Part shown: piece after piece, positions 35,468-64,000 of the stretch
How positions within the stretch are numbered: position 1 is the stretch's first letter
How the letters are laid out: the number at the start of each line of letters is the position of its first letter
Sequence record: OQ870555.1
Source: Escherichia phage PECP14
Length of the DNA stretch: 64,000 bases
Direction: 5' to 3' (one strand)
Notes under the pieces: model-generated
The model's database searches: none
Told to the model about the DNA's origin: nothing
The model's input: the letters and a program-made list of their open reading frames with translations, nothing else
Program-made: the position numbers and the translations under genes

Positions 35468-35497
35468 ATATTTATAAATTTGAGAGAGGAATCAAAC

Positions 35498-35794
35498 ATG
35501 AAACACATTGTACTTGCATTGACTCTAGTATCTACTTCTGTATTTGCTGCTCCACAACAGGAACTTTGTCAAGTTCAAGTTTGTAATAAGCTAGAACGAT
35601 TTACTCTAGACATTTGGTCGCACATTAAAGATAATATGGGTGAACAGTGTTTTGATATTGTTCTGCCAAAAGAACAAGCTGTTCCTGGGGCTGTTCTCAG
35701 CTCAGAATCACGTTGGTGGCAGGGTTCTTCTATCAACCCAACTAAGAAGTCAGTGACACGTATCAAACAAGTATATCAGTGCAATGTTCAGTAA
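35498..35794 (+). CDS. small secreted Cys-containing protein
   Basis: signal peptide MKHIVLALTLVSTSVFAAP. Confidence 0.45.
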   Translation: MKHIVLALTLVSTSVFAAPQQELCQVQVCNKLERFTLDIWSHIKDNMGEQCFDIVLPKEQAVPGAVLSSESRWWQGSSINPTKKSVTRIKQVYQCNVQ

Positions 35795-35802
35795 AATTTC
35801 AC

Positions 35803-35831
35803 TTGCTTAATGCCGAAATTTTCTGTATAAT
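35803..35831 (+). promoter_or_regulatory. early promoter cassette preceding tRNA-Ser
   Basis: TTGCTT-17-TATAAT. Confidence 0.55.
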
Positions 35832-35845
35832 ATATTCATAAATTC

Positions 35846-35939
35846 GGAAGATTAACCCTAAAGGTAAGGGAGCTGTTTGCTAAACAGCCAGTAGCTGTGG
35901 AGACACGGTGTGCCAGTTCGAATCTGGCATCTTCCTCCA
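35846..35939 (+). tRNA. tRNA-Ser(GCT)
   Basis: acceptor GGAAGAT/ATCTTCC; AC loop TTGCTAA; long variable arm; follows promoter. Confidence 0.7.
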
Positions 35940-35944
35940 AATTT

Positions 35945-36022
35945 GGTTCTCAAGCTCATTTGGTATGAGCCGTCGCCTCATAAGCGAAAGGTAGGTAGGT
36001 TCGAATCCTCCGGGAGCCACCA
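35945..36022 (+). tRNA. tRNA-Met/Ile2(CAT)
   Basis: D-stem GCTC/GAGC; AC loop CTCATAA; T-loop TTCGAAT; CCA encoded. Confidence 0.55.
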
Positions 36023-36039
36023 ATTAACTAGGAGACTAT

Positions 36040-36225
36040 ATGTCTAGATTCTATGAAATGAAGAAAGCATTAGAAGAATGTCGGTGTAAGGATTGTCATG
36101 GTGGTGGTAGGCAGGATGATGCAGAACCTGGGGATATTTTCTGTAGAGAATGGGAATGTCCTACATGTAAAGGTACTGGTATCAACCCTGAATATGCAAT
36201 TTGTCTAGACATTGAGCGAGGCTAA
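36040..36225 (+). CDS. small Cys-rich (zinc-ribbon-like) protein
   Basis: CRCKDC...CREWECPTC. Confidence 0.4.
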   Translation: MSRFYEMKKALEECRCKDCHGGGRQDDAEPGDIFCREWECPTCKGTGINPEYAICLDIERG

Positions 36226-36565
36226 GATGGATATTTTTACTACTCCGGCAATAAACCTTTTAGGTGTTGGCTTGTTCCAAGCTACGGTGTATCGTACTGA
36301 TGATTCTACTGATGTGGTAACGTTCATCGTACCTGAGTTCTTCCTAGAAAAGTTCTTTGAAGAGTTTGAGCAGTTCCGTGAAGAACACAATGCTCATTCC
36401 GATATGGAAGATCTAGCAGCTATGTTCCCTGTGGTTTACGGCTATATCTTTGAAGGTAATGGCCTAGATCTTAATAAATCTGAACTCGTTGAACTTAATT
36501 GGGGCATCAATTTTGAAGTTGGCTCTCCATTCCCTCGATATTTCCAGGGTTTAGAGATTCGCTAA
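36212..36565 (+). CDS. hypothetical protein
   Basis: ORF. Confidence 0.45.
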   Translation: MSEAKMDIFTTPAINLLGVGLFQATVYRTDDSTDVVTFIVPEFFLEKFFEEFEQFREEHNAHSDMEDLAAMFPVVYGYIFEGNGLDLNKSELVELNWGINFEVGSPFPRYFQGLEIR

Positions 36566-36573
36566 GATTACAT

Positions 36574-36650
36574 GGGGGTGTAATCGAATTGGCATAGGTA
36601 CTGGACTTAAAATTCAGGTTTTGTGGGTTCGAATCCCACCACCCCTACCA
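36574..36650 (+). tRNA. tRNA, anticodon TAA (isotype uncertain)
   Basis: acceptor GGGGGTG/CACCCCT; T-arm GTGGG-TTCGAAT-CCCAC; AC loop CTTAAAA with short variable loop. Confidence 0.5.
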
Positions 36651-36665
36651 AATTAAGGAAATAAA

Positions 36666-36788
36666 ATGAAAGCTATTAAGAAAGCACTACGTAAATTTAT
36701 GTACTGTCGTTTTCATAGCATCAAGACTTCAACTAATGGTACGACTTATGATCGCTATGATCCTAAGTTTGGCTTACATTCTAAATAA
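36666..36788 (+). CDS. small hypothetical protein
   Basis: 40-codon ORF with AAGGAAA SD after a tRNA. Confidence 0.3.
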   Translation: MKAIKKALRKFMYCRFHSIKTSTNGTTYDRYDPKFGLHSK

Positions 36789-36801
36789 CTGGAGATAATA
36801 A

Positions 36802-37008
36802 ATGGCTAATCCTGAAATTACTGCACAGCGCTTTATGCTGAAAGGTATTATTGCTGAAGCAGGCATGACAGAAGAAGTTGCAGATTTTCAAAAGCAGTTC
36901 CTAAATATTCTCACTCAAGCCAAAGAGCTAGGAGAGAAAGAACATGGCGCGGCTATTATGGCAATCACATTGGTTGGGCTTGATCTGGCAGAAGAATCAG
37001 GAGTTTAA
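36802..37008 (+). CDS. hypothetical protein
   Basis: ORF. Confidence 0.4.
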   Translation: MANPEITAQRFMLKGIIAEAGMTEEVADFQKQFLNILTQAKELGEKEHGAAIMAITLVGLDLAEESGV

Positions 37009-37038
37009 CTCCTCCAAGCAGAAATTTTAAAAATGTAC

Positions 37039-37068
37039 TTGCTTTTTACTTAAGATTTCTGCTATAAT
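37039..37068 (+). promoter_or_regulatory. early promoter cassette
   Basis: TTGCTT-18-TATAAT. Confidence 0.5.
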
Positions 37069-37098
37069 AGTTATATAAATTGATGAAGGAGTTAACGA

Positions 37099-37374
37099 AT
37101 GTCAAAACGTGTTACTGCAACTGGTGTTGAAAGTGCTGTTTGTAAATCCTGGGGTGGCTGGGAAGGTGAGATTGAATGGCTTTATTTCTACGATGTAGAA
37201 CTTCTGCCGGAAGTCAAAGCTAAATGTGTGGAAGCTGGTATGGCTCCTGATGCAAAGGCTGATATCGAAATCACCATGACTAAGCTAGAAGGTCGTGTAA
37301 TTACGCTCAATGATGATTATGAAGAAGTGTTCGAGCTTCCATTCAAACTGAGTGTCACCCCTAGCTTCGAGTAA
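37099..37374 (+). CDS. hypothetical protein
   Basis: promoter cassette + AAGGAG SD. Confidence 0.45.
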   Translation: MSKRVTATGVESAVCKSWGGWEGEIEWLYFYDVELLPEVKAKCVEAGMAPDAKADIEITMTKLEGRVITLNDDYEEVFELPFKLSVTPSFE

Positions 37375-37410
37375 CTGATATAGCACTGAGCAAGTTCTTT
37401 AAAATTTGAC

Positions 37411-37439
37411 TTGCTCAGTCCTTCAAAACTTGATATAAT
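37411..37439 (+). promoter_or_regulatory. early promoter preceding tRNA cluster
   Basis: TTGACTTGCTC / TATAAT. Confidence 0.5.
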
Positions 37440-37503
37440 AGTTATCTAATTTGGAAAACATATTTAAAAGTGTTTAAACTAGTATTTGAATATTTCTAAA
37501 TAT

Positions 37504-37594
37504 GTTGGATTAGTATCGTAGAGGTAGCGAAGCAGACTGTAAATCTGCCGACTCGGAAGGGTCTCGGGTGGTTCGACTCCATCATCCAACACCA
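37504..37594 (+). tRNA. tRNA-Tyr(GTA)
   Basis: AC arm GCAGA-CTGTAAA-TCTGC; long variable arm. Confidence 0.6.
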
Positions 37595-37601
37595 AATTTA
37601 A

Positions 37602-37678
37602 GTCCTGTTAGACAAACTGGTAAAGTCACTACCCTTTCAAGGTAGGATTTGCGGGTTCGATCCCCGCACAGGACGCCA
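37602..37678 (+). tRNA. tRNA-Glu(TTC)
   Basis: acceptor GTCCTGT/ACAGGAC; AC loop CTTTCAA; T-arm GCGGG-TTCGATC-CCCGC. Confidence 0.7.
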
Positions 37679-37687
37679 AATTCTGCA

Positions 37688-37763
37688 TTCCTAGAGTGTT
37701 ACTGGACAGCATGTCGGTCTCCAAAACCGTACGGTCTAGGTTCGAGTCCTAGTAGGTTTGCCA
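37688..37763 (+). tRNA. tRNA-like, anticodon CCA (Trp?), non-canonical acceptor
   Basis: AC arm TCGGT-CTCCAAA-ACCGT and T-arm CTAGG-TTCGAGT-CCTAG are good but acceptor stem does not pair. Confidence 0.35.
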
Positions 37764-37769
37764 ATATTT

Positions 37770-37844
37770 GCACCTTTAGCTGAGATGGATTAGCGCTTGC
37801 CTGAAGAGCTTGAGAGGTTGGATCGTTACCAACGGGGTGCACCA
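37770..37844 (+). tRNA. tRNA-Phe(GAA)
   Basis: acceptor GCACCTT/GGGGTGC; AC loop CTGAAGA; T-arm GTTGG-ATCGTTA-CCAAC (atypical loop). Confidence 0.5.
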
Positions 37845-37846
37845 AT

Positions 37847-38134
37847 TTGAAGGAGATGCTGATGCATCCTGAAAACTTCTTTATTTACTGTGCGGATAAG
37901 TCACTGAAACGCAGAATTAACAAAGTCTATCATTATCGTGCTAGTCAACAGCCTTATGTTTATGCTTTTGATGGAGAAACCATTCCACTAGAGCAGTTGG
38001 CTTGTGATTACATGGTATTGAAGAACTTTGATGAGACAAAGATCTCAAGCGTTCATAATCGACAGAACCCATTAACGTGGAAGTATAAGAAGAAAAAGAA
38101 AGGCATCATATTTCTGAAAAATGTAGTTGCTTAA
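37847..38134 (+). CDS. hypothetical protein
   Basis: ORF after tRNA cluster. Confidence 0.4.
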   Translation: MKEMLMHPENFFIYCADKSLKRRINKVYHYRASQQPYVYAFDGETIPLEQLACDYMVLKNFDETKISSVHNRQNPLTWKYKKKKKGIIFLKNVVA

Positions 38135-38155
38135 CCGCTTAAAGTTCTGTATAAT
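38127..38155 (+). promoter_or_regulatory. early promoter cassette
   Basis: TTGCTT-17-TATAAT. Confidence 0.5.
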
Positions 38156-38184
38156 TATTACATAAATTGAACTGGAGAAGCAAC

Positions 38185-38409
38185 ATGACAGAACAAGAAT
38201 TGAAAGAACGTAAGCTGGTAATGCTTCGCTTACTAAACATTTTCTCTGGTATGGATGGTGGTATTGACTTCGTTAATCTACGTTGCTTTGTAGAAGAAGC
38301 AGAAGGTGAGGCTATCACTAGGATTCTTAAACATATGGGTTTGTTATTAGATGTTGCTAATGTGGCTACTCAATATAAGCTCGAAGATTTACCGGAGCGT
38401 GTTAAATGA
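38185..38409 (+). CDS. hypothetical protein
   Basis: promoter cassette + GGAGA SD. Confidence 0.4.
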   Translation: MTEQELKERKLVMLRLLNIFSGMDGGIDFVNLRCFVEEAEGEAITRILKHMGLLLDVANVATQYKLEDLPERVK

Positions 38410-38597
38410 AAATGTTAGTTAAATTTAAGTGTTGTGGTTCTGAACATATTTTCACTCGTTATAGAGAGTTTAAGATGTGTGAGTGTGGTAAGTCAGGCTA
38501 TGATGCTGGAGATGGCTATTATGCTAGATCTATAGGACATTATAAAGATCTAGAGTTTACTAATCTCGAAAAGCAAGATAAATCGACCGTTGGCTGA
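38406..38597 (+). CDS. small Cys-containing protein
   Basis: ORF overlapping previous stop. Confidence 0.4.
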   Translation: MKMLVKFKCCGSEHIFTRYREFKMCECGKSGYDAGDGYYARSIGHYKDLEFTNLEKQDKSTVG

Positions 38598-38659
38598 ATG
38601 GCTTAGGCGGAGGCCTGCAAAACCTCCTTATGTGAGTTCGAATCTCATGCGGTCGTCCA
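38584..38659 (+). tRNA. tRNA-Cys(GCA)
   Basis: acceptor CGACCGT/GCGGTCG; AC loop CTGCAAA; T-loop TTCGAAT. Confidence 0.6.
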
Positions 38660-38666
38660 AATTTTA

Positions 38667-38749
38667 GGGTCGTTAGCCAAGCGGTTTGGCGGTGGACTGT
38701 TAATCCATGTCGAAAGACAACGTAGGTTCGAATCCTACACGGCCCGCCA
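38667..38749 (+). tRNA. tRNA-Asn(GTT), extended variable region
   Basis: acceptor GGGTCGT/ACGGCCC; AC arm GTGGA-CTGTTAA-TCCAT; T-arm GTAGG-TTCGAAT-CCTAC. Confidence 0.55.
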
Positions 38750-38852
38750 TATTCTGTGTAGAGTTAAGTAAACCGGTAGCCAACCAGCTATCATTACTGA
38801 TATCGAATTCAGTCACAGATACCATTTTTCATTAACAACTGAGGAAATAGAT

Positions 38853-39038
38853 ATGACAACTCGTGCAATTGCTCGACTAGAAGCTGATCGTGATAATCTG
38901 ATTAATAATATTAAGGTTCGTGGTAATATTATTAAGGCTCTGAAAGCTGAACTTCTTGAAGAACTTCAAGGTCAAGTAGAGCGTCGTGAAGCTCTAAAAG
39001 AGGTTGAGGAAGCTATCGAAAAACTCAAAACTGAGTAA
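38853..39038 (+). CDS. small coiled-coil protein
   Basis: ORF with GAGGAAA SD. Confidence 0.4.
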   Translation: MTTRAIARLEADRDNLINNIKVRGNIIKALKAELLEELQGQVERREALKEVEEAIEKLKTE

Positions 39039-39047
39039 ATAAATTAT

Positions 39048-39124
39048 GCGATCGGGGCTGGCTTGGTAATGGTACTCCCCTGTCACGGGAGAGAATGTGG
39101 GTTCGAATCCCATCGGTCGCGCCA
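39048..39124 (+). tRNA. tRNA-Asp(GTC)
   Basis: AC arm CTCCC-CTGTCAC-GGGAG; T-arm GTGGG-TTCGAAT-CCCAT. Confidence 0.7.
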
Positions 39125-39138
39125 ATTTAGGCTATAGT

Positions 39139-39330
39139 ATGACACGCAAATATTTAGTTATTAAAGGTGAACATGCAGGACAAACTGTATACTCATTGAA
39201 ATTTCATGATTATGGTTTAGCCTCAGATGATACTCGATATACTGGAATAGAGCATACAAGTGTAACATTAGACGAAACAGGTGATTATCCTAGTTTTACT
39301 ATTCCTAAAGATTTCTTAAAAGAGATTTAA
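39139..39330 (+). CDS. hypothetical protein
   Basis: start moved downstream of tRNA-Asp. Confidence 0.4.
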   Translation: MTRKYLVIKGEHAGQTVYSLKFHDYGLASDDTRYTGIEHTSVTLDETGDYPSFTIPKDFLKEI

Positions 39331-39331
39331 T

Positions 39332-39408
39332 GCTTCCATAGCTCAACTGGTTAGAGCTACCGCCTCTTAAGCGGAGGGTTGAAGGTTCAAGTCCTTCTGG
39401 GAGTACCA
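39332..39408 (+). tRNA. tRNA-Lys(CTT)
   Basis: D-stem GCTC/GAGC; AC loop CTCTTAA; T-arm GAAGG-TTCAAGT-CCTTC. Confidence 0.6.
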
Positions 39409-39611
39409 AACAAATAGAGTAAAGGCTACAGTAGGTGCACCCTTACGGACTGCTACACCGGACTCTATTCATTAACAAACATTCTAGCGTGGTGGAGAGG
39501 GGACACCAGCTTGCCGAGGGTAGAAGCTCGTTCGATTCGAGTGAAAGAATGGTTCTCGTAAATCCGCACAAGTGATAGCAGGTTCAAGTCCTGCCTAGAT
39601 TGACTTATTAT
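39409..39611 (+). other. degenerate tRNA-like elements
   Basis: two T-arm-like hairpins (CTCG-TTCGATT-CGAG; GCAGG-TTCAAGT-CCTGC) with no complete cloverleaf. Confidence 0.3.
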
Positions 39612-39685
39612 GCGTTCGTAGTTAAAAGGTATAATTTTTGGTTGCCAACCAGAAGTTGAGGGTTCGATTCCCTCCGACCGCACCA
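39612..39685 (+). tRNA. tRNA-Gly(GCC)
   Basis: AC arm TTTGG-TTGCCAA-CCAGA; T-arm GAGGG-TTCGATT-CCCTC. Confidence 0.6.
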
Positions 39686-39933
39686 AATTTAGGTTTCTGC
39701 TTCCTAGAGAACGAACTCCTAGATAAACAAGGTGATGAGTTTCCGGCCGGTTCTAGTCGCTGAAAATCCTCCCGACCAGGTAGGTGTAAGTAAACGAAAG
39801 TTTACTTATTAAGTAAGTCCGACACATCGGCGGGTGTGTTCTAGTACTTAAAGAAGGTCTAGCAAACTTTCTCGCTAGCATGAGTTGATAGCTCGGTGAC
39901 TTACCTAATAAGTAAATTTATTAAAAAATGTAG

Positions 39934-39962
39934 TTGCTATTTAGCTTAATTCTCTGTATAAT
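39934..39962 (+). promoter_or_regulatory. early promoter preceding tRNA-Pro/Met cluster
   Basis: TTGCTA-17-TATAAT. Confidence 0.5.
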
Positions 39963-39994
39963 ATATTTTATAAAGTGAGTTAACAAAGAATATT

Positions 39995-40072
39995 CTCCGT
40001 GTAGCTCAGTTTGGCCAGAGCGTTTCGTTTGGGGCGATAGGGTCGGGGGTTCAAATCCTCCCACGGAGACCA
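39995..40072 (+). tRNA. tRNA-Pro(TGG)
   Basis: acceptor CTCCGTG/CACGGAG; D-stem GCTC/GAGC; AC loop TTTGGGG. Confidence 0.7.
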
Positions 40073-40078
40073 AACAAT

Positions 40079-40156
40079 TGCGGGTTAGATCTCTGGTAGA
40101 GATCGCTAGTCTCATAAGCTAGAAAGAGGTAGGTTCGATTCCTGCACCCGCTTCCA
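40079..40156 (+). tRNA. tRNA-Met(CAT), possibly initiator (1:72 mismatch)
   Basis: D-stem GATC/GATC; AC arm CTAGT-CTCATAA-GCTAG; T-arm GTAGG-TTCGATT-CCTGC. Confidence 0.55.
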
Positions 40157-40177
40157 ATTCAATAGAAGGATTTCGAA

Positions 40178-40342
40178 ATGAAATTATTTCGCTTAAAAGT
40201 AAGTGATCTACGTTCTAGTAAAGATCGTAAGAAGTATCTATTAGCCCATTACGGTAAAGATAAAAATGAAGTAATGGCGGAATTTGGTATTAATCATCCT
40301 TACTTGAAAGTCTACTCTATTAAAGAAGTATACATGTACTAA
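40178..40342 (+). CDS. small hypothetical protein
   Basis: 54-codon ORF between tRNAs. Confidence 0.3.
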   Translation: MKLFRLKVSDLRSSKDRKKYLLAHYGKDKNEVMAEFGINHPYLKVYSIKEVYMY

Positions 40343-40344
40343 AT

Positions 40345-40423
40345 AGATCGCTAGCTCAATTGGTTTAGCAGCACCCGGCTTTTAACCGGAAGGTTCTGGG
40401 TTCGAGTCCCAGGCGGTCTACCA
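40345..40423 (+). tRNA. tRNA-Lys(TTT)
   Basis: acceptor AGATCGC/GCGGTCT; AC loop CTTTTAA; T-arm CTGGG-TTCGAGT-CCCAG. Confidence 0.65.
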
Positions 40424-40440
40424 ATTTAAAGGAATTTGTT

Positions 40441-40758
40441 ATGAATATTAACAAAGTTCTAGAAACAATATCAGAAATGTCTGGTAGAGCTGGAAAACGC
40501 TTTACTGAACTATGTATTAAAAATCAAAAAGTACCAGAACATCAATGTCATTATTGTCGAGATTGTGAACAATACCATGAAATGTGTATGGTTGAAGATT
40601 GGGTCTGGAATCAGATAAGAAAAGAACAACCCAAAGATATTGTTCTATGTTTTACTTGTATGGAACGACGTTTAGGACGTAAAATTACTCTTAAAGATCT
40701 TAAACATGTTCCCTGTAACGCTCCTTACTTCATTGGCTTTAGAATGGAGAGATTTTAA
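40441..40758 (+). CDS. Cys/His-rich protein, possible HNH-type nuclease
   Basis: CHYCRDCEQYHEMC...CFTCMERR. Confidence 0.35.
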   Translation: MNINKVLETISEMSGRAGKRFTELCIKNQKVPEHQCHYCRDCEQYHEMCMVEDWVWNQIRKEQPKDIVLCFTCMERRLGRKITLKDLKHVPCNAPYFIGFRMERF

Positions 40759-40891
40759 TGACTATCTGGTTTTACTTAATGAAGCAGAAAATAAAAGATC
40801 CCTATGTATTCTCTGCCGATTTTACAATAGGTATGTTTATAGCAGGTTTCTGTGAATTTGTAGTTGAAGCCTACATTATAGGAAGTCTTTT

Positions 40892-40965
40892 GCTCGGTTA
40901 GTTTAATGGGAGAACCCCGTCTTTACACGGCGGTTGCGATAGTTCGATTCTATCACCGAGTACCA
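40892..40965 (+). tRNA. tRNA-Val(TAC)
   Basis: AC arm CCGTC-TTTACAC-GGCGG; T-arm GATAG-TTCGATT-CTATC. Confidence 0.65.
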
Positions 40966-40990
40966 ATTAACTCAAAATAAGGAATTGCAA

Positions 40991-41344
40991 ATGCAATTAT
41001 CAAGCAAGGTTCAAGGCTATTTCGGACATGTAACAATGGAGTTCGCTATCTCTAAAGGTTGGGACTTCGAACAAGATTTAGCTGAGTTCTACAAAGATAT
41101 TGATCTGAACGTACCGTACATGGGACTCTCAACTGGTCAAGAGATCACAGAAGCCGACGTGTTCAAGGCAAGTCAAGGTGAGGTAACACCTAGTTTTGCC
41201 GAGTTCTGGTTAGGTATCACACTGAAAGAAGATGCACCGGATAGTGGAGTACTAATGACTAGTATGCACTCTGGAAGCTCTGATTACCTTTTCGTTAGTG
41301 ACGTTAAGGAAATACAAGAAATCTGCAAAAATGTACTTGCTTGA
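40991..41344 (+). CDS. hypothetical protein
   Basis: ORF after tRNA-Val. Confidence 0.45.
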   Translation: MQLSSKVQGYFGHVTMEFAISKGWDFEQDLAEFYKDIDLNVPYMGLSTGQEITEADVFKASQGEVTPSFAEFWLGITLKEDAPDSGVLMTSMHSGSSDYLFVSDVKEIQEICKNVLA

Positions 41345-41365
41345 TGCTTAATTTCTTGTTATAAT
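41337..41365 (+). promoter_or_regulatory. early promoter driving a non-coding stretch
   Basis: TTGCTT-17-TATAAT; next ORF starts 360 bp downstream. Confidence 0.5.
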
Positions 41366-41725
41366 ATTTATATAAATTGATGTGAAAATAGCTGCCTAGA
41401 TATTAGGTGTATGACGTCTACACTAGCAGAGCTACCGAAAAAAGAGATCCTCAGGATAAACGCCGTAGCAAAATTAGTCTGATATCCATCAATTTAGTTC
41501 ACTAAGGTATTAGCTCGACCTAGGACTGGCTGCCAAAAAGCACGGTTGCAATTAGACCCATAATGGCGGGGGATACTTTGCAAGAAGTTCTAGATTAGTC
41601 CACTAGATTCAGCGGCAACTGAATAGTGTATCGGGTTTGTGGAGAGCGGTTATCCTCTACTGGCTAATGTCTGAGGGTAATACGCACACCGAGCTAATAG
41701 CCTTAGTAAACTAGAAGGAATATCT
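41366..41725 (+). ncRNA. candidate promoter-driven non-coding RNA
   Basis: 360 bp with no ORF after the promoter at 41337-41365; GC-rich. Confidence 0.3.
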
Positions 41726-41989
41726 ATGTTTGATCTTAAAGATATGGCTAAGAAACTAATGTCGCAACGTTATCAACAAAGAACCCTCCATAAACGAGTT
41801 TCCGATATGAAGAAACGTTGCAATAATGCTAAGTATTATAATAGTCTTAATAAACTATCTGATATAGATCTTGCTAAAACTGAAGCAATATATAATCACT
41901 TAGTAGTAGAATCTGATATAGTGAATAAAGATATTGCTAGGCTAGAAGCTCAGATTGTAGCAACTGTTCTCGATATGTATAGAGAATAA
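41726..41989 (+). CDS. hypothetical protein
   Basis: ORF. Confidence 0.45.
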   Translation: MFDLKDMAKKLMSQRYQQRTLHKRVSDMKKRCNNAKYYNSLNKLSDIDLAKTEAIYNHLVVESDIVNKDIARLEAQIVATVLDMYRE

Positions 41990-41998
41990 ATAAATTTT

Positions 41999-42077
41999 GG
42001 GGAATGGGTCTGCATGGAGTGGACACCTCGCTTGCACCGAGGACATCAGAACGGTTCGATTCCGTTATTCTCCACCA
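41999..42077 (+). tRNA. tRNA-Ala(TGC)
   Basis: AC arm CCTCG-CTTGCAC-CGAGG; T-arm AACGG-TTCGATT-CCGTT. Confidence 0.6.
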
Positions 42078-42083
42078 AAATTC

Positions 42084-42159
42084 GGGGTCATAGGTTATTT
42101 GGTTAAACTTACTGCCTTGCAAGCAGTGGAACTCAGTTCAATTCTGAGTGACTCCACCA
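42084..42159 (+). tRNA. tRNA, anticodon TGC (second Ala-type)
   Basis: AC arm ACTGC-CTTGCAA-GCAGT; T-arm CTCAG-TTCAATT-CTGAG. Confidence 0.55.
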
Positions 42160-42178
42160 AACAAATTAAGGAAATAAT

Positions 42179-42397
42179 ATGGTATTCTTAGCAGCCTCTG
42201 TAGTTCTTGCAGCTTTAGCACTAGCTATCTATTTTAGAACTATTAAAGATTTAGCTAAAGAAAAGAAAACTTTCTTTACTGATTATTCTTGGGGCGCTCC
42301 ATATACCGTCCGCTTTATCAGCTTAGAAGCTATGCTGATAATGGTATTCAGTGGTATAGGTTCCGTTGTTACAGGGTTACTATTTATTTCTAACTAA
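42179..42397 (+). CDS. small membrane protein
   Basis: two hydrophobic helices. Confidence 0.45.
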   Translation: MVFLAASVVLAALALAIYFRTIKDLAKEKKTFFTDYSWGAPYTVRFISLEAMLIMVFSGIGSVVTGLLFISN

Positions 42398-42404
42398 ATA
42401 AAAT

Positions 42405-42485
42405 GGGGATGTGGCGAAATTGGCAGACGCGCTAGATTTAGGTTCTAGTCTTCGGGTGTGGGTTCGAGTCCCTCCATCCCTACCA
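42405..42485 (+). tRNA. tRNA-Leu(TAG)
   Basis: AC arm CTAGA-TTTAGGT-TCTAG; long variable arm. Confidence 0.6.
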
Positions 42486-42659
42486 AACATTGGATTAACT
42501 CATGATGAAAACTCCTATAACTGATATCTGGTTAGCTGTTAATACATTAACTAAAGAGTATGTGTTTATAGAGTATGGTCAGAGGTATGACCAAAAGATG
42601 TATAATCTCATACTTCCAGTATCCGCTAATGAAGTTTATGATTTAATCCTGAGATCTAC

Positions 42660-42750
42660 GGAAGAGCAAATCGATTAGGTGACGAAAACCACTTGGAAAG
42701 TGGCTGACTGGTAAAACGGCTTGAGAGTTCGAATCTCTCTTCTTCCGCCA
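42660..42750 (+). tRNA. tRNA-Ser(GGA)
   Basis: AC loop TTGGAAA; long variable arm; T-arm GAGAG-TTCGAAT-CTCTC. Confidence 0.55.
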
Positions 42751-42757
42751 AACAACT

Positions 42758-42847
42758 GGAAGGTAGGACATAGTGGTATGTAACAGGTCTTGAAAACCTG
42801 CCCGCTGTAGCGATATGGTGATGGTTCGACTCCATTACCTTCCTCCA
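42758..42847 (+). tRNA. tRNA-Ser(TGA)
   Basis: AC arm CAGGT-CTTGAAA-ACCTG; long variable arm; T-loop TTCGACT. Confidence 0.65.
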
Positions 42848-42865
42848 ACTAATAAGGAAAACCTT

Positions 42866-43069
42866 ATGAAACACATTGTTAAGTATACCGAAAGCGAACG
42901 TGGCTGGGGTGGTGAAATCTGGTATCGTCCATTTGACACCGAGGCCGAAGCCTTGATGGAAGTTAATGATGTAAATAAAGATCTACCTAAAGATCATGTG
43001 CCAACATACTACATCCAAGCTGAGTATATTGGTGTTAAGGATAAGGTTCCCGAAGGTTACAAGTTTTAA
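42866..43069 (+). CDS. hypothetical protein
   Basis: start after tRNA-Ser with AAGGAAA SD. Confidence 0.45.
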   Translation: MKHIVKYTESERGWGGEIWYRPFDTEAEALMEVNDVNKDLPKDHVPTYYIQAEYIGVKDKVPEGYKF

Positions 43070-43388
43070 ATAATTCTTGAAGTATGCCGGAATCGGTAGA
43101 CGGGGCTTCCTAAAGGGCGTAAGGGGAACATCCACTCCTCATAAGATACCCGAAAACGAGGCTGAGATAAATGGTCTATCTCGTGAAGGTTCAAGTCCTT
43201 CTGCTTCTTGATACATCAATGGCTCAAAGAGTAACGGTGCACCTTTCTAGAGAATTTCCTGGGCGAGAATCCAGGTGTAATCAACTAGTTGTTAGTGTGA
43301 TGAGTTTCGGAGAGCCGCCACAATTGAAGTCTTTAGAATGGGTATCGCCCTTTAGCCCCTCCGAAAGGGATAACTAGAGATTTCAATT

Positions 43389-43465
43389 GTGGCTATATCA
43401 TAATTGGTTAATGATCCTGATTGTGAATCAGGCCTATGTGGATTCGAATTCCACTAGCCACCCCA
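43389..43465 (+). tRNA. tRNA-His(GTG)
   Basis: AC arm CCTGA-TTGTGAA-TCAGG; T-arm GTGGA-TTCGAAT-TCCAC. Confidence 0.7.
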
Positions 43466-43471
43466 AATATT

Positions 43472-43546
43472 GCGTCCTTATTTCAATGGAAAGAATGTAA
43501 AGCTACGAACTTTACGATCGGGGTTCGATTCCCTGAGGATGCACCA
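43472..43546 (+). tRNA. tRNA-Arg(ACG)
   Basis: AC arm TAAAG-CTACGAA-CTTTA; T-loop TTCGATT. Confidence 0.65.
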
Positions 43547-43570
43547 ATTAACTTATATAGGAACTAAAAT

Positions 43571-43771
43571 ATGGCTGATTTCTGCAAAGAATGCTCTATC
43601 GATATGTGGGGCAAAGATACTGGTGATCTTTCTGGTCTGATTACAGAAGCCGAAGTTAAAGAAGGCTATGGTGCTGTTGTAATCTGTGAAGGTTGTGGTA
43701 TTATTCGTGTTGATCATAATGGTAAACGTCTAGAAGAACCAGATCCAATTGCCACGGTTCCTGTAGAATAA
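43571..43771 (+). CDS. small Cys-rich protein
   Basis: CKEC...CEGCG. Confidence 0.4.
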   Translation: MADFCKECSIDMWGKDTGDLSGLITEAEVKEGYGAVVICEGCGIIRVDHNGKRLEEPDPIATVPVE

Positions 43772-43778
43772 AAATTAT

Positions 43779-43854
43779 TGGGATGTAGATCAATTGGCAG
43801 ATCGTCGGCCTCTGACTCCGAAGGTTCCACGTTCGATCCGTGGCATCCCAGCCA
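43779..43854 (+). tRNA. tRNA-Gln(CTG)
   Basis: AC loop CTCTGAC; T-arm CCACG-TTCGATC-CGTGG. Confidence 0.65.
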
Positions 43855-43860
43855 AATACT

Positions 43861-43936
43861 TGGAGAGTAGTGTAACGGTTAGCACAACGGCCTTTGACTC
43901 CGTTAATGGTAGGTTCGATTCCTCCTTCTCCAGCCA
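43861..43936 (+). tRNA. tRNA-Gln(TTG)
   Basis: AC loop CTTTGAC; T-loop TTCGATT. Confidence 0.6.
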
Positions 43937-43942
43937 ATTTAT

Positions 43943-44017
43943 GCGTGATTAGTTCAGTGGCTAGAATAACTGGCTTCCAACCAGTAGACACGAGTTCGAC
44001 TCTCGTATCCCGCACCA
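43943..44017 (+). tRNA. tRNA-Gly(TCC)
   Basis: AC arm ACTGG-CTTCCAA-CCAGT; T-arm ACGAG-TTCGACT-CTCGT. Confidence 0.65.
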
Positions 44018-44033
44018 AATATAAGGAAACGTT

Positions 44034-44255
44034 ATGCACGTTTTTGAGTTTCGTAATAAAAACCCTAATAGACGAGTTTTAATTATTGGTGAAACATATC
44101 GAGCTTATGAGCAAGAAGATGGTTCGGTTTTATTAAATGATGAAAAGCAAGGCTATAGTTTTCATCCAGAAGAAACATATGAGGAATTTCGTACTAAGTT
44201 TCTTTTACCAGACTGGCTAGCAATAGCTGAGCAAAGAGAACCCGAAGATGGCTGA
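44034..44255 (+). CDS. hypothetical protein
   Basis: ORF. Confidence 0.45.
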   Translation: MHVFEFRNKNPNRRVLIIGETYRAYEQEDGSVLLNDEKQGYSFHPEETYEEFRTKFLLPDWLAIAEQREPEDG

Positions 44256-44422
44256 TAATCTAAAGCTAAAGGTAGATAAACAAATGAAGTGCGTTGAGGT
44301 TGAGTTGGGTGAAGAACGTTTAAAACTCTCCTTCGAATTCTTACAACAGTTGGCTATGACAGTAATGTCTGATAAGTCTCCTGTATTTGAAAAAGAAATT
44401 CCGTTGAAATAACGGGTTTATT

Positions 44423-44497
44423 GCTCCTAAAGCATTGCTGGCAATGCAGTTGCCTTGTAAGCATCTGAACCGGGTTCGATTCCTGGTGGGAGCACCA
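44423..44497 (+). tRNA. tRNA-Thr(TGT)
   Basis: D-stem GCAT/ATGC; AC loop CTTGTAA; T-loop TTCGATT. Confidence 0.65.
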
Positions 44498-44512
44498 AAT
44501 TTAAAAATTCAT

Positions 44513-44541
44513 TTGCCTTCTCTCTTATTTCTTGTTATAAT
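44513..44541 (+). promoter_or_regulatory. early promoter cassette
   Basis: TTGCCT-17-TATAAT. Confidence 0.5.
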
Positions 44542-44571
44542 ATTTATATAAATTAATGAGAGGGAAGGCAA

Positions 44572-44865
44572 ATGAAACGTTATCTTTCTGTCGTATTCCA
44601 AACGGGTGGTCAACGCTACACTTACGAATTTCCTGAGTCTTGGAAAATCAAAGAGGGTGATCAAGTTGTTGTGCTAACACCTCGTGAAGGCTTCAAAGTA
44701 GTAACGGTTAAACAAGTATTTCCAAAAGATCACGAACCATCTAAGTCTATTAACTATAAGATGATTCATGGTCTGGTACGAAAAGTACCTAGAACAGAAG
44801 TCGAAGTAGATAAAACTGGAGAAGCTAAATACCAGTATACCTCTTACTTAGACGAAATGATGTAA
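44572..44865 (+). CDS. hypothetical protein
   Basis: promoter cassette + GAGGGAAGG SD. Confidence 0.5.
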   Translation: MKRYLSVVFQTGGQRYTYEFPESWKIKEGDQVVVLTPREGFKVVTVKQVFPKDHEPSKSINYKMIHGLVRKVPRTEVEVDKTGEAKYQYTSYLDEMM

Positions 44866-44866
44866 T

Positions 44867-44942
44867 GCTCCGATAGTTCAAACGGTTAGAACAGGCGACC
44901 GATAATCATCAAATCTTGGTTCGATCCCAAGTCGGAGTACCA
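44867..44942 (+). tRNA. tRNA-Ile(GAT)
   Basis: D-stem GTTC/GAAC; AC loop CCGATAA; T-arm CTTGG-TTCGATC-CCAAG. Confidence 0.55.
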
Positions 44943-44948
44943 AATTAT

Positions 44949-45021
44949 AGTTAGTTGGCAGAGTGGTTATGCACCTCCTTCATACGGAGTGACTACAGTG
45001 GTTCAAATCCACTACTAACTA
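44949..45021 (+). tRNA. tRNA-Met/Ile2(CAT), CCA not encoded
   Basis: acceptor AGTTAGT/ACTAACT; AC loop TTCATAC; T-arm AGTGG-TTCAAAT-CCACT. Confidence 0.55.
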
Positions 45022-45393
45022 CTAAACAGAGGATCAGGTCATTGTACCAGATCCTGCTGAGAAGAGAGTCCACATTCTATAAATGCCCGGGCGTGACAGC
45101 AGGAAGTAGACTGCAACTCCATGCTATCCAGGAGTATAAATGTAGAAGCTAGGACTTTAGATAGACATTGTCTTAGCGTGAGCAATCACGTAGTTGCAAC
45201 AGACCTGGAAGATCGCAACGTTAAAATCAAAGTTCCAGTGCTTATTTATCTAATCGAGACCATCAATCTCACCGGAATGCTAGCACCCCAACAGTAGCTA
45301 GTGATTAGATAATAAGCAAGCCTGCCTTCCAGTTTTTATCTTGCTTCTGGGTTAACAAAAAGCTGAGCCAAATTCTAACATCAGGGAGATCTA
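45022..45393 (+). ncRNA. candidate non-coding RNA downstream of tRNA cluster
   Basis: 370 bp ORF-poor GC-rich stretch between the last tRNA and the grcA-like gene. Confidence 0.25.
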
Positions 45394-61248: not shown

Positions 61249-61859
61249 TGTTTACACAACAAACCATTAAAGTAGTTGCAGATCATGAACTAGACACATG
61301 GGATTACAGCTTTAAAGATCTGACTGCTACAGTACAGTTTAAATCTATGCAACTGTCGTTTTTACACACTGATCTTCAAGGTTGTAAAGAGTTTCAGGCT
61401 AAACTCATGAATGCTCGTGCTATCTTTGGCACAGCTCGCATTCCGGCTGATAATCTGATTAATGCACTGATCGATGCAGGATACAAACTTGTGAAGACTG
61501 AGGTGAACCGCCCAAGTACTCCAGTGACTATTCGGGATCCGTGGCAGTCAGGGCCAATCGCAATGCTGAATAATTCTGATAAAAGATTAATGTCGGATAT
61601 GCACAATGTTCCTTGTGGTGGCGTGGTAAGTAATACGCAATCATATAAGTTTGGGGAAGATTGCAGTCCTTCTGTACAATTGAAACATACTCAAGAAGCT
61701 CTCGAATCTGATATGCGAAGCGTAGCACCTGCGGATGCTGGAGTTTCTAGGAACTCATATACTATTCATCTGAGCACGCCATCTAGTAAGAATGAGAGCT
61801 TAGCTGATGCTGTTATGGAAGCTCTTGTTGATCTGACTAACAGTAAGGGTTTTAATTAA
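61248..61859 (+). CDS. hypothetical protein
   Basis: ORF. Confidence 0.5.
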   Translation: MFTQQTIKVVADHELDTWDYSFKDLTATVQFKSMQLSFLHTDLQGCKEFQAKLMNARAIFGTARIPADNLINALIDAGYKLVKTEVNRPSTPVTIRDPWQSGPIAMLNNSDKRLMSDMHNVPCGGVVSNTQSYKFGEDCSPSVQLKHTQEALESDMRSVAPADAGVSRNSYTIHLSTPSSKNESLADAVMEALVDLTNSKGFN

Positions 61860-62590
61860 TGAAAGATTTGGCTGTAAAGTTTAAGAATATTCTAGCCCTC
61901 GCTAAGGGGGCAGATCATCGCTGTTTCTCTGATCTAACCGCTGAGGAGAAACATGCAGTAATGTTTGTTTGTGAGATGTTCCCTGCTAGATGGGAAGGTG
62001 GTAAGATTAAGTATGATAACAAAGCTGCAAAAGCTGACCTTGCTTACTCTTACGTTGATATGAATAAACTTCTCAAGTCTTTAGACCCAACTGCTAAAGG
62101 CCACATGGGAAACTATATTCACGTTATTATTGATGAACCTCTCCCAGCTTATAGAGAAACATCCGCTAGAGAAGCATTAGAAGCATATCCAGAACAATTG
62201 TACATTCCACCTAAGAAATGTAAGTTCGATCATCTTCCAACATTAGCATTTGAAACTAGCATCACATTTGAAGATATTTATAGAACGATTGGAGCTGTAG
62301 TAGCACGGATTGCAGTGGCACATCATCGTGATATAGAACTTACTACAGCGGAAGATTATATTCTATATGCTATTCATGATGAAAAGGATTCTTTCAAACG
62401 TTTAATGGATGCCCTAGGATTAGGTAGTCTCACTGCGCTTGTGCTTAACCAGGCTCCTAGAACCAAGCGTTATGCAAAAGGATCTATTACTCTCGAAGAA
62501 ACAGGATCTACATCTTCATTCCTTGCTACATATATTTATCTAGCATCTAAAGGAATCTATCTAAAGGCTAGAAAGAATGTCACTATATAA
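61859..62590 (+). CDS. hypothetical protein
   Basis: ORF. Confidence 0.5.
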   Translation: MKDLAVKFKNILALAKGADHRCFSDLTAEEKHAVMFVCEMFPARWEGGKIKYDNKAAKADLAYSYVDMNKLLKSLDPTAKGHMGNYIHVIIDEPLPAYRETSAREALEAYPEQLYIPPKKCKFDHLPTLAFETSITFEDIYRTIGAVVARIAVAHHRDIELTTAEDYILYAIHDEKDSFKRLMDALGLGSLTALVLNQAPRTKRYAKGSITLEETGSTSSFLATYIYLASKGIYLKARKNVTI

Positions 62591-62933
62591 AGTATATATT
62601 CTTGCAAATAGGGATCTGACGAAGATCCCTAAGAGAACAAAGATCGGTATTAGTATGAATCCACATAATAGGATTCAAACACTAAACTTAGATAAGATAG
62701 TTTATCGAGGTTTTGACGATCTATATGTATATGGAATCTATGAAACCCACAATCCTAGAGATCTAGAAGCCGCTGCACATATCTACTTTAAGAAATACCG
62801 CTGTAACTTAAAAGGATTCGAAGGATGCACAGAGTTCTTTGATATTCACCCACAACTTGCAGAACGATTCCTATTAAATACAGGAGCCAAGAAGATTTAC
62901 GAACCCAATATCAATCTCGAAGAGGATGTATAA
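62577..62933 (+). CDS. GIY-YIG-like (T5orf172-type) domain protein
   Basis: YKVYILAN...KIGISMNPHNRIQTLN resembles GIY-YIG/T5orf172 core. Confidence 0.45.
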   Translation: MSLYKVYILANRDLTKIPKRTKIGISMNPHNRIQTLNLDKIVYRGFDDLYVYGIYETHNPRDLEAAAHIYFKKYRCNLKGFEGCTEFFDIHPQLAERFLLNTGAKKIYEPNINLEEDV

Positions 62934-62950
62934 ACGTTAACAAAATCTTC

Positions 62951-62980
62951 TTGACAACTCATTGCGGCACATGTTATAAT
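62951..62980 (+). promoter_or_regulatory. sigma70 consensus-like promoter facing the repeat region
   Basis: TTGACA-18-TATAAT; no ORF downstream within the window. Confidence 0.5.
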
Positions 62981-63256
62981 AATCTCATAGATTAAAAACA
63001 ACTCTTGTTTTGAACTCTAGGGGCGATGATTATTACACTTAGTATTACGTCTATACGTTGCGACAGCACGAGTATAGATCTAATTACTAAGTCTTCCGTA
63101 ATACTCACGCGCCCCACGGGTAAGCTCTCATGAAATGGGGGCTACTTTACTTTTTTATTTATATGAATATATTTAAAGGCAATATTTGTGTTCAAGATGA
63201 TACACTTGTTGCCTCCGCTCTTCCTAGGATGGCACAACACTTTCTAGTAGACTCCT

Positions 63257-63880
63257 AAGTTTCTAGGAAAACTCTTGCATTCTAGGGCAGTTTCTCACCT
63301 ACTATAAATATCCTAGGCCGGTTTCCTATACAGGGCGGTTATAGGGAGGGCGGTTATTTCTAGAAGACATTTTTCCAAAACACATTTCTGGAAATTGCTA
63401 TCGGATTTGCACATTATGTTTCTAGAAATTTATGGTCGGATTTGCACATTGATAGGAGTCTCCGAAGTTTTTAGGAACACTGAAAATAGCAGCATTATTT
63501 CGGGCCGAAGGCCCATGATTGCCTGAGTTTTTAGAGCCACAGGAATTTTCACTTGTCAAGCGATTTTGCCCCATTTTGCTAATAAAATTTCGCAGAATCT
63601 CCACTAATCTCAATTCTAGCCAAAACATCTCACATTATCCCCAAAAACGCAGCAAATCGGTGCTAAAGCACCAACACCGCTGCTCCTCTCGTAGTTCCTC
63701 CCAAAATCTCGTCGAATTCGCACTTCTCCCCAAACTCACACAATCACACACCCTCTCATCGAAGTCACAAAAATCTTGTCGGATTCGCACACCTTAACAC
63801 TTGCCAGATTTGCACATATTCTAGCTAATTCCACAAGAATCGAGCCGCGCTCGTGATTGCTGGAGTTTTTAGGAAAATTC
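63257..63880 (+). repeat. second dispersed repeat family (A/G)AGTTT(T/C)TAG(G/A)
   Basis: copies near 63257, 63463, 63525, 63862; plus GGGCGGTTAT tandem pair at 63335-63358 and GGGCCGAAGGCCC hairpin at 63501-63515. Confidence 0.55.
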
Positions 63881-64000
63881 ATTGTCGGATTCGCACATAT
63901 AAAAAATATTTCCCATCGGATTTGCACACTACCAAAAATTGTCGGATTCGCACATGCACGCTGGCACGTAATCCGTGGGGGCAAATGTCGGATTTGCACA
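63401..64000 (+). repeat. array of 8 direct copies of a ~15-bp motif (T)GTCGGAT(T/C)(T/C)GCACA
   Basis: copies near 63401, 63435, 63777, 63807 (partial), 63883, 63915, 63939, 63986; same orientation, irregular spacing, no ORF. Confidence 0.7.

What the first reader, a model, noticed from the sequence alone, without database searches (positions are those of the whole stretch)
62934..64000. Gene-free repeat array at the right edge of the window, fed by a consensus promoter
The last ~1.07 kb has no credible ORF. It begins with a near-consensus promoter (TTGACA-18-TATAAT at 62951-62980) and carries at least 8 same-orientation copies of TGTCGGAT(T/C)(T/C)GCACA, 4 copies of a second motif and a GGGCGGTTAT tandem pair. 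Spacing is irregular, so this is not CRISPR. T5-type phages are known to carry repeat-rich non-coding DNA near the terminal-repeat boundary (injection-stop region), so this may be that locus, or a protein-binding array such as an origin or partition-like site. The window truncates it.
Basis: partly seen in the sequence, partly recalled or inferred. Interest (0 to 1): 0.8.

Follow-up and report, generated by a model that had tools for sequence, protein, structure and literature searches.

The report
T5-type terminal-repeat junction repeat region
This gene-free, repeat-rich stretch is the already described non-coding junction between the left terminal repeat and the unique DNA of a T5-like phage (the "injection stop signal" region), and the strong promoter at its start most likely makes a separate, so far unannotated, small structured RNA instead of transcribing the repeats.

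Summary
The last 1.07 kb holds a 12/12 sigma-70 promoter, nine same-strand copies (seven exact, two degenerate) of RTCGGATTYGCACA, four copies of AGTTTYTAGGAA, a GGGCGGTTAT pair, and no conserved ORF.

The window is a T5-like (Epseptimavirus-type) phage read in reverse. The region maps to T5 about 10.95 to 9.75 kb. [quoted passage not shown] The motif is T5's annotated "direct repeat D" (DRD, nine copies).

The terminal-repeat boundary falls inside the array, at window 63533|63534. The window ends on DRD copy 1. The nick site, the DRC repeats and the paired DnaA boxes lie just beyond the window edge. The array is therefore already known and its function is still unproven. I favour a protein-binding array that marks the repeat's right end (terminase recognition), possibly also acting in the injection pause.

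One result is new. The conserved promoter is followed by a roughly 170-nt, three-helix RNA (62987-63160) that ends in a terminator-like hairpin. Relatives carry about eight very different sequence versions that keep the same fold, with compensatory changes. It has no Rfam match, no annotation and no paper found.

The parts
62951..62980 (+). Sigma-70 promoter TTGACA-18-TATAAT with TGn extended -10; predicted start about 62987
   Evidence: 12/12 match. The -35, the TG and the -10 are conserved in all aligned T5-like relatives, T5 itself included (TTGACAGATAG...TGTTATCAT), and in more distant relatives.
62987..63160 (+). Candidate ~170-nt structured non-coding RNA. H1 is a hairpin at 62995-63011 (outer pairs 62988-62991 with 63016-63019). 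H2 is a long irregular hairpin at 63020-63115. H3 is a terminator-like hairpin at 63118-63147, followed by a U-rich run to about 63160.
   Evidence: MFE -58 kcal/mol, z = -6.8; the opposite strand gives -48. About 8 sequence types in relatives, with ~50-58% core identity between major types, give the same three-helix fold with z from -3.9 to -7.7, and the + strand is always the more stable. Compensatory changes are seen. The terminator-like site was flagged. Covariance model R1 finds only this locus in the window. No meaningful Rfam match.
63161..63332 (.). AT-rich spacer followed by a conserved block rich in TTCTAG/CTAGG
   Evidence: The invariant TTCAAGATGATACAC block is. TTCTAG occurs at 8.6/kb here against 0.61/kb in the window.
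63333..63357 (+). GGGCGGTTAT direct pair (period 15)
   Evidence: D8. Invariant in relatives and present in distant T5-like phages.
63400..63448 (+). DRD copies equivalent to T5 DRD8 and DRD7 (63400-63413 and 63435-63448). They lie in unique DNA, outside the terminal repeat.
63501..63533 (+). GC hairpin (GGGCC-GAA-GGCCC) plus GATTGCCTGAGTTTTTA, directly abutting the terminal-repeat boundary on its unique side
   Evidence: Near-invariant in relatives. The T5 LTR and RTR end exactly here.
63534..64000 (.). Start of the terminal repeat (the right end of T5's LTR). The boundary is at 63533|63534 and the repeat continues beyond the window.
   Evidence: T5 10219 (or 10139 in AY587007) maps here. Sepoy's PhageTerm boundary lies at the same offset from DRD. 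Several genome records end at this base (query position 958). A distant relative has its boundary at the homologous TTTTCAYTTGTCAA...TTTTGCCCC block.
63550..63800 (+). C/A-rich, G-poor tract, including the equivalents of T5 direct repeat A copies 2 and 3 (about 63609-63647) and one DnaA*-type box TTATCCCCA (63635)
   Evidence: GC skew down to -0.57. DRA positions are mapped.
63711..64000 (+). Seven DRD copies inside the terminal repeat: 63711-63724 (degenerate), 63778-63791, 63803-63816 (degenerate), 63884-63897, 63915-63928, 63941-63954 and 63987-64000 (= T5 DRD copy 1)
63841..63872 (+). Second copy of the unit 'short hairpin + GATTGCTGGAGTTTTTAG'
   Evidence: D7. The hairpin arms differ among relatives but stay complementary (CGAGC/GCTCG, TCGAA/TTCGA, GATGC/GCATC).

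Best explanation
SHOWN. The region is the homologue of T5 'Repeat Region 3'. This is the conserved non-coding junction between the early genes and the left terminal repeat, and T5 records annotate it as the injection stop signal region. The repeated 14-15-mer is T5 'direct repeat D'. All copies point the same way. Two lie in unique DNA and seven lie inside the terminal repeat. The physical repeat boundary (the site where the genome's right end is cut) sits between the two groups, next to an invariant hairpin + GATTGCCTGAGTTTTTA.

INFERRED. The DRD copies are binding sites for one sequence-specific DNA-binding protein. My preferred role is to mark the right end of the terminal repeat for the packaging machinery. 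T5 injects its left end first, so the right end should be packaged first. The terminase would then have to recognise and cut exactly here. A one-orientation array flanking the cut would give both position and direction. Because the same sequence is present in the left repeat, about 50-750 bp beyond the point where first-step transfer stops, it may also take part in the pause or restart of DNA entry.

The promoter at the start of the region is not primarily there to transcribe the array. It makes a ~170-nt structured RNA that ends at a terminator-like hairpin.
For: Identity:
- 445 T5-like phage records match, 191 of them over at least 80% of the query.
- Relatives annotate this stretch as iss, LTR end and DRD1-9.
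- The published description of Repeat Region 3 lists nine DRD repeats and an overrun into unique DNA.

Non-coding: ORFs are broken in relatives.

Cis-element behaviour: the motif is about 100-fold over chance and strand-uniform. In the parts of T5 scanned directly (1-13 kb and 72-121.75 kb), the motif clusters only in this region of the LTR and RTR, with two solitary copies on the same strand. The 13-72 kb interval is covered only by the homologous DNA of this window, which has no further copy apart from one 1-mismatch match at 61593.

Link to the boundary: the boundary lies between the outer and inner DRD groups in T5, Sepoy, several IMG/VR genomes and a distant relative with 3 copies outside and 4 inside. 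The array survives in distant T5-like phages whose surrounding sequence differs.

Promoter product.
Against: No binding protein is known, and nothing here tests binding. The left boundary of the terminal repeat has no DRD array, so the array cannot define both cuts. 'Right end packaged first' is an inference from injection polarity, not a measured fact for T5. The literature treats the region as iss-related and, as of 2026, calls the mechanism unknown. Five copies are 8/9 matches to the DnaA box, so a host-protein reading remains possible. The H3 terminator has an interrupted U-tract, so read-through into the array cannot be excluded.
Confidence: 0.75

Rival explanations
1. The DRD array is part of the injection stop/restart device. 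The sites would be bound by a host factor or by a pre-early protein such as the A2 DNA-binding protein as the DNA threads into the cell. Binding would either hold the DNA after 8% has entered or give A1/A2 a handle to restart transfer.
For: T5 records include most of the array in the annotated iss (9140-10149). The estimated first-step shear point (~7.9%) and major nick 1 lie within tens of bp of DRD copy 1. The region is far better conserved than the neighbouring pre-early genes. The iss mechanism is still open.
Against: The array lies on the not-yet-entered side of the shear point, whereas iss is argued to lie to its left. Three T5 copies (two here) lie outside the terminal repeat. Davison's candidates are IRD'-spacer-IRC' and DRE, and his model assigns no role to DRD.
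Confidence: 0.3
2. The DRD copies are low-affinity DnaA boxes. They would extend the DnaA-box cluster of the iss region, so that the array loads or titrates host DnaA (membrane anchoring, or an origin-like structure).
For: ATTTGCACA matches TTWTNCACA at 8 of 9 positions in five copies, all on one strand. One-mismatch boxes occur at 6.6/kb here against 2.3/kb in the window. True paired DnaA boxes lie about 320-400 bp further on in the closest relative. A DnaA-based model is published.
Against: There is no exact DnaA box in 62934-64000. The conserved motif extends 5 bp beyond the box (RTCGG), and half the copies carry C at a consensus T position (7/9 match). Davison counts eight boxes and none of them is a DRD. 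T5 origins were mapped near the genome centre.
Confidence: 0.1
3. The array is a target of transcription from the consensus promoter. Read-through RNA or the act of transcription across the repeat boundary would be the functional event, for example transcription-coupled processing of the concatemer junction as in T7, or R-loop formation.
For: The promoter points at the boundary, about 550 bp away, and is conserved everywhere. H3 has an imperfect U-tract. A C-rich, G-poor tract follows the boundary. It could serve as a Rho-loading site on this transcript or favour R-loops for the opposite one.
Against: A stable three-helix RNA with a terminator-like 3' hairpin lies between the promoter and the array in every relative. 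No data on transcript ends are available.
Confidence: 0.1

Closest known systems
Bacteriophage T5 'Repeat Region 3' / injection stop signal (iss) region, with direct repeat D (Heusterspreute 1987; Wang 2005 annotation AY587007; Davison, bioRxiv 10.1101/866236)
   Same: Homologous sequence in the same genomic position: the LTR/unique junction, next to the leftmost early genes. It has the same 15-mer in the same orientation, the same GGGCGGTTAT pair, the same boundary hairpin and the same order of elements.
   Different: This phage lacks the T5 DRD9 copy, because of a deletion near 63275, and has an extra degenerate copy at 63711. The window stops at DRD1, so the nick site, DRC/DRE repeats and the IRC'/IRD' DnaA-box pairs are not included.
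Terminase recognition sites built from short repeats flanking the cut (phage P1 pac with 4+3 hexamers; lambda cosB R sites; SPP1 pacL/pacR). Recalled from my own knowledge, not tested here.
   Same: Several copies of one short motif lie on both sides of a fixed cleavage position, in a non-coding stretch. The motif occurs as one cluster per genome unit.
   Different: The array spans about 600-740 bp, much more than those sites. All copies are in one orientation with irregular spacing. No terminase binding data exist for T5.
DnaA-box clusters such as E. coli oriC
   Same: A 9-mer resembling TTWTNCACA is repeated on one strand, near genuine DnaA boxes of the iss region.
   Different: No copy is an exact box, the conserved motif is longer than a DnaA box, and no AT-rich 13-mer unwinding element or initiator gene was identified.
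Small structured phage RNAs of unknown or structural role (phi29 pRNA, ~174 nt, encoded next to a genome end; T4 stable 'species 1/2' RNAs). Recalled from my own knowledge.
   Same: For the RNA at 62987-63160: similar size, its own strong early-type promoter, a highly base-paired fold, and a location within about 400 bp of a genome-end processing site.
   Different: No sequence or covariance-model similarity to any Rfam family. T5 packages with a classical two-subunit terminase. Expression and function are untested.

Membership tests
T5-family Repeat Region 3 / iss region | Non-coding DNA at the junction of the left terminal repeat and the early region of a T5-like genome | tested here: met
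   Synteny and 83-94% identity to T5-like genomes. Boundary mapped to 63533|63534. ORFs not conserved.
T5-family Repeat Region 3 / iss region | Series of about nine same-orientation 'direct repeat D' 15-mers | tested here: met
   Nine copies here. Copy-by-copy correspondence with the T5 DRD1-8 annotation.
T5-family Repeat Region 3 / iss region | IRD'-spacer-IRC' inverted repeat with paired DnaA boxes, DRC/DRE repeats and the major nick site | not testable with these tools
   These lie beyond base 64000. They are present at the expected place in T5 and in the closest relative, Sds2.
T5-family Repeat Region 3 / iss region | DNA transfer actually pauses here during infection | not testable with these tools
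   This needs blender/shear experiments. The mechanism is still described as unknown in 2026 papers.
CRISPR array | Near-identical repeats at regular spacing, with unique spacers of similar length | tested here: not met
   Spacings of 25 to 276 bp. The only Rfam CRISPR hit is far below threshold and lies elsewhere.
DnaA-dependent replication origin | Cluster of consensus DnaA boxes TTWTNCACA | tested here: not met
   Zero exact boxes in 62934-64000; only one-mismatch versions.
DnaA-dependent replication origin | Adjacent AT-rich unwinding element and origin activity | tested here: inconclusive
   An AT-rich stretch exists at 63144-63205, but it is also the tail of the RNA terminator. T5 origins were mapped near the genome centre.
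Plasmid/phage partition site (parS-type) | Centromere repeats next to parA/parB-type genes | tested here: not met
   Of the two neighbouring ORFs scanned, one has a T5orf172/MUG113 endonuclease-type domain and the other has no Pfam domain. The relatives' annotations show no partition genes.
Terminase recognition (pac/cos-type) site | Repeated motif flanking a fixed genome-end cleavage position | tested here: met
   Two to three copies lie outside and four to seven inside the repeat boundary in this phage, in T5 and in a distant relative.
Terminase recognition (pac/cos-type) site | Specific binding by the small terminase subunit and requirement for packaging | not testable with these tools
   No data found.
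Independent small RNA gene | Own promoter, conserved secondary structure supported by covariation, and an intrinsic-terminator-like 3' end | tested here: met
   Promoter and terminator-like site. Fold z = -6.8. In alignment A4, 91% of cells are paired, 12 of 39 pairs changed on both sides, 0 of 500 shuffles reach this, and slid controls give 38-50%. The T5-type group shows 3 compensatory and 3 wobble changes against 1 break.
Independent small RNA gene | Detected transcript | not testable with these tools
   No transcript data could be read here. Public RNA-seq PRJEB101990 (a T5-like phage) could be re-mapped.

The most novel reading that the evidence does not exclude
The conserved consensus promoter drives a previously undescribed ~170-nt structured RNA found throughout the family. 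It is the first gene of the second-step DNA and lies about 400 bp from the terminal-repeat cut site. It exists as about eight discrete, highly divergent sequence versions that preserve one three-helix fold. This pattern suggests a structure-read function under diversifying selection or modular exchange, for example a decoy or anti-defence RNA, or a cofactor in end processing. Separately, the DRD array may be the long-sought T5 packaging recognition site and not part of the injection stop.
Probability: 0.45. Interest if true: 0.6.

Novelty: already known. Interest (0 to 1): 0.35.

Why it matters
The repeat array adds nothing new. It is one more copy of a region sequenced in 1987, annotated in 2005 and compared across 25 phages in 2020.

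It still matters in two ways. First, how T5 stops and restarts DNA entry, and how it cuts its 10-kb terminal repeats, are both unsolved. This analysis shows that the DRD array brackets the physical repeat boundary in close and distant relatives. That gives a concrete alternative to test (terminase recognition) for a motif that has no assigned role.

Second, the promoter that looked like the array's driver marks an unannotated, structurally conserved small RNA present across the family. If it is expressed, it would be a new non-coding gene in a classic model phage.

Tried and rejected
- Coding explanation: five ORFs of 42-92 aa were checked against 11 relatives. All are interrupted in most relatives, and the three of them scanned against Pfam had no match. 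The 35-aa ORF inside the RNA is not conserved between RNA types (read from the sequences).
- CRISPR: irregular spacing.
- tRNA/tmRNA: none past 45 kb.
- Rfam: nothing at E <= 1 over 60-64 kb. Only sub-threshold noise at E <= 10 on the RNA region and on its T5 counterpart.
- Exact DnaA boxes and the IHF consensus: none in the region.
- MAFFT + RNAalifold over all RNA types failed because the core does not align. MAFFT's structure-aware Q-INS-i mode could not run, because the MXSCARNA component it needs is not installed.
- Covariance model R1, built from the window-type RNAs, reached the L013 and L007 types. It did not reach the T5, L093 or distant types. For those, homology rests on position, promoter and fold.
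- A metagenome scan and a second viral-contig scan for the conserved downstream block gave no new RNA types.
- Davison 2015 (Bacteriophage 5:e1086500) could not be retrieved by DOI or PMC id, Wang 2005 is not in the searchable library, and the Davison preprint's supplement is not held.
- Literature searches for a T5 small RNA or for a T5 packaging signal found nothing specific.
- The GC-skew profile gives no origin-type switch, only a local C-rich tract.

Full report
**What the window is.** The 1.1 kb at the right edge matches 445 phage records. Nearly all are Salmonella or Escherichia T5-like phages, and the best match is Sds2/PYC03 at 94.5%. The window also carries 28 tRNA genes at 30-45 kb, which is typical of this family. 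Matches in records deposited in the canonical T5 orientation are on the minus strand at about 9.8-10.9 kb. [quoted passage not shown] - The promoter at 62951-62980 is a 12/12 match with a TGn extended -10.
- TCGGATTYGCACA occurs seven times exactly, only on the + strand and only between 63401 and 64000. The expected count for the whole window is 0.07. Two degenerate copies bring the total to nine.
- The AGTTTYTAGGAA motif (four copies) and the GGGCGGTTAT pair are also there.
- The ORFs in the stretch are not conserved. Relatives that are 80-95% identical in DNA have stops or frameshifts in every one of them, and none has a Pfam match.

**What it corresponds to.**
- T5 RefSeq annotates 'injection stop signal (iss)' at 9140-10149, the end of the LTR at 10219 and a major nick at 9748/9749.
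- The Wang et al. record AY587007 annotates 'direct repeat D' copies 1-9, 15 nt each, at exactly the positions of the motif. It also annotates direct repeat A copies 2-3, several palindromes and 'major single-stranded nick 1, 7.9%' right next to DRD copy 1.
- A motif scan of T5, Sepoy, S114, Sds2 and Lindwurm shows copy-by-copy correspondence, and the multiple alignment confirms it.
- Davison's comparison of 25 T5-like phages calls this 'Repeat Region 3' (T5 9194-10409). [quoted passage not shown]

The array is therefore a known, named feature. The window ends exactly on DRD copy 1. In T5 and in the closest relative the sequence continues with AAAGCGCAGGGC (nick consensus), DRC-type repeats, two pairs of DnaA boxes separated by 3 bp, and a terminator, about 480-560 bp in all. 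Those missing parts, not the DRD array, are the published candidates for the stop signal itself.

**The terminal-repeat boundary lies inside the finding.** T5's LTR and RTR end with ...TTTCTGTGGCTC, and in the LTR copy this is followed by TAAAAACTCAGGCAATCATGGGCCTTCGGCCC. On the window this places the boundary at 63533|63534. The repeat runs from 63534 to the window edge. Supporting evidence:
- Sepoy's PhageTerm boundary is at the same offset from the DRD pair.
- Several complete-genome records stop at this very base.
- A distant T5-like genome (122 kb) has its end at the homologous TTTTCAYTTGTCAA...TTTTGCCCC block, with three DRD copies outside and four inside.

In this phage two copies are outside and seven inside. 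In the parts of T5 scanned directly (1-13 kb and 72-121.75 kb), the motif clusters nowhere else. There are two solitary copies, on the same strand, and none at the left boundary of the repeat. The remaining 13-72 kb of T5 is covered only by the homologous DNA of this window, where the only other match is a 1-mismatch copy at 61593. More distant relatives keep arrays of RTCGGATTTGCAC although the surrounding sequence has changed.

**How it probably works.**
- What is shown: a strand-uniform, family-wide conserved, non-coding array that brackets the physical right end of the terminal repeat.
- What I infer: the copies are binding sites for one sequence-specific protein. T5 injects its left end first, so by the usual last-in-first-out logic the right end is packaged first. 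The terminase must then recognise and cut at this boundary. A one-orientation array on both sides of the cut would supply position and direction. P1 pac has a comparable 4+3 arrangement (from my own knowledge).
- The rival reading follows the literature's label: the array helps to stop or restart DNA entry. In its favour, the shear point and nick 1 lie next to DRD1. Against it, the array sits on the not-yet-entered side, and Davison's models give it no role.
- A DnaA reading is possible but weak. Five copies are 8/9 matches, none is exact, and the conserved motif is longer than a DnaA box.
- Papers from 2026 still call the mechanism unknown.

**The promoter and what follows it.**
- The promoter is conserved in every relative, T5 included, and in four more distant T5-like phages.
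- The 170 nt after it are the least conserved part of the whole region. About eight discrete versions exist, with only about 50-58% identity in the core between the major versions, while the flanks are 80-100% identical.
- All versions nevertheless fold into the same layout: a short 5' hairpin, a 95-150-nt irregular hairpin, and a 3' hairpin with a GGGGG arm followed by a U-rich run.
- The window's version folds at -58 kcal/mol (z = -6.8) against -48 for the opposite strand. All nine versions tested have z from -3.9 to -7.7, and each has a more stable + strand.
- Within the T5-type group, 3 pairs show compensatory double changes, 3 show wobble changes and 1 is broken. In the L013-type group, variable sites fall in 9 of 64 unpaired columns but in only 1 of 132 paired columns.
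- A covariance model built from the window-type sequences recovers two other types. On that alignment 91% of cells pair, 12 of 39 pairs have changes on both sides, no shuffle out of 500 reaches this, and slid controls give 38-50%. The caveat is that the alignment was fitted to the model.
- The model finds no second copy in the window.
- There is no meaningful Rfam match. No feature is annotated here in three T5 records or in the relatives examined. No paper was found.

I conclude that the promoter most likely makes a discrete small RNA. Its 3' hairpin ends about 240 bp before the first DRD copy. Read-through into the array is possible, because the U-tract is interrupted, but it is not the simplest reading. 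The RNA's function is unknown, and expression has not been shown.

**Verdict.** The locus is already described, so the array itself scores low for novelty. Two things are added here: the bracketing of the repeat boundary by the DRD copies, which leads to the packaging-site hypothesis, and the candidate RNA gene.

Noticed in passing
window 62987-63160 (+); T5 NC_005859 ~10.6-10.85 kb (-): Candidate ~170-nt three-helix non-coding RNA directly downstream of the conserved consensus promoter. It occurs as about eight very divergent sequence types among T5-like phages, all with the same fold and with compensatory changes. It has no meaningful Rfam match, no annotation and no paper found.
   Followed up: yes
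window 63501-63534 and 63841-63872: Two copies of a unit 'short GC hairpin + GATTGCYKGAGTTTTTAG'. The first abuts the terminal-repeat boundary on its unique side and is near-invariant. The hairpin arms of the second differ between relatives but stay complementary.
   Followed up: partly
window 63550-63800: Strongly C/A-rich, G-poor + strand just inside the terminal repeat (GC skew to -0.57). On a leftward transcript it would resemble a Rho-loading tract. The opposite transcript would be G-rich.
   Followed up: no
window 63190-64000: TTCTAG is about 14-fold enriched (7 copies in 811 bp against 0.61/kb in the window), and GATC is absent (0 copies against 4.4/kb). This suggests further protein sites or avoidance of Dam sites.
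   Followed up: partly
window 61593-61605; T5 12165 and 78962: Solitary DRD-like copies inside genes, on the same strand as the array: a 1-mismatch copy in the 203-aa ORF here, and exact core copies in T5 at 12165 and 78962 (coordinates within genes T5.019 and D13 as annotated).
   Followed up: partly
window 62577-62933: 118-aa T5orf172/MUG113-domain protein that several relatives annotate as a homing endonuclease. It overlaps the upstream gene by 14 nt. T5 and S114 annotate no equivalent gene at this place, so it is probably a mobile insertion right next to the variable RNA.
   Followed up: partly
window 30382-45022: 28 tRNA genes in one cluster, as expected for a T5-like phage.
   Followed up: no
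L004 (Sds2) 4099-4580, just beyond the window edge: The closest relative continues with the nick consensus AGCGC, DRC-like repeats and two DnaA-box pairs (TTATCCACA-N3-TTATTAACA and TTATCAACA-N3-TTATCAACA). The window is missing the half of the region usually proposed as the stop signal.
   Followed up: yes
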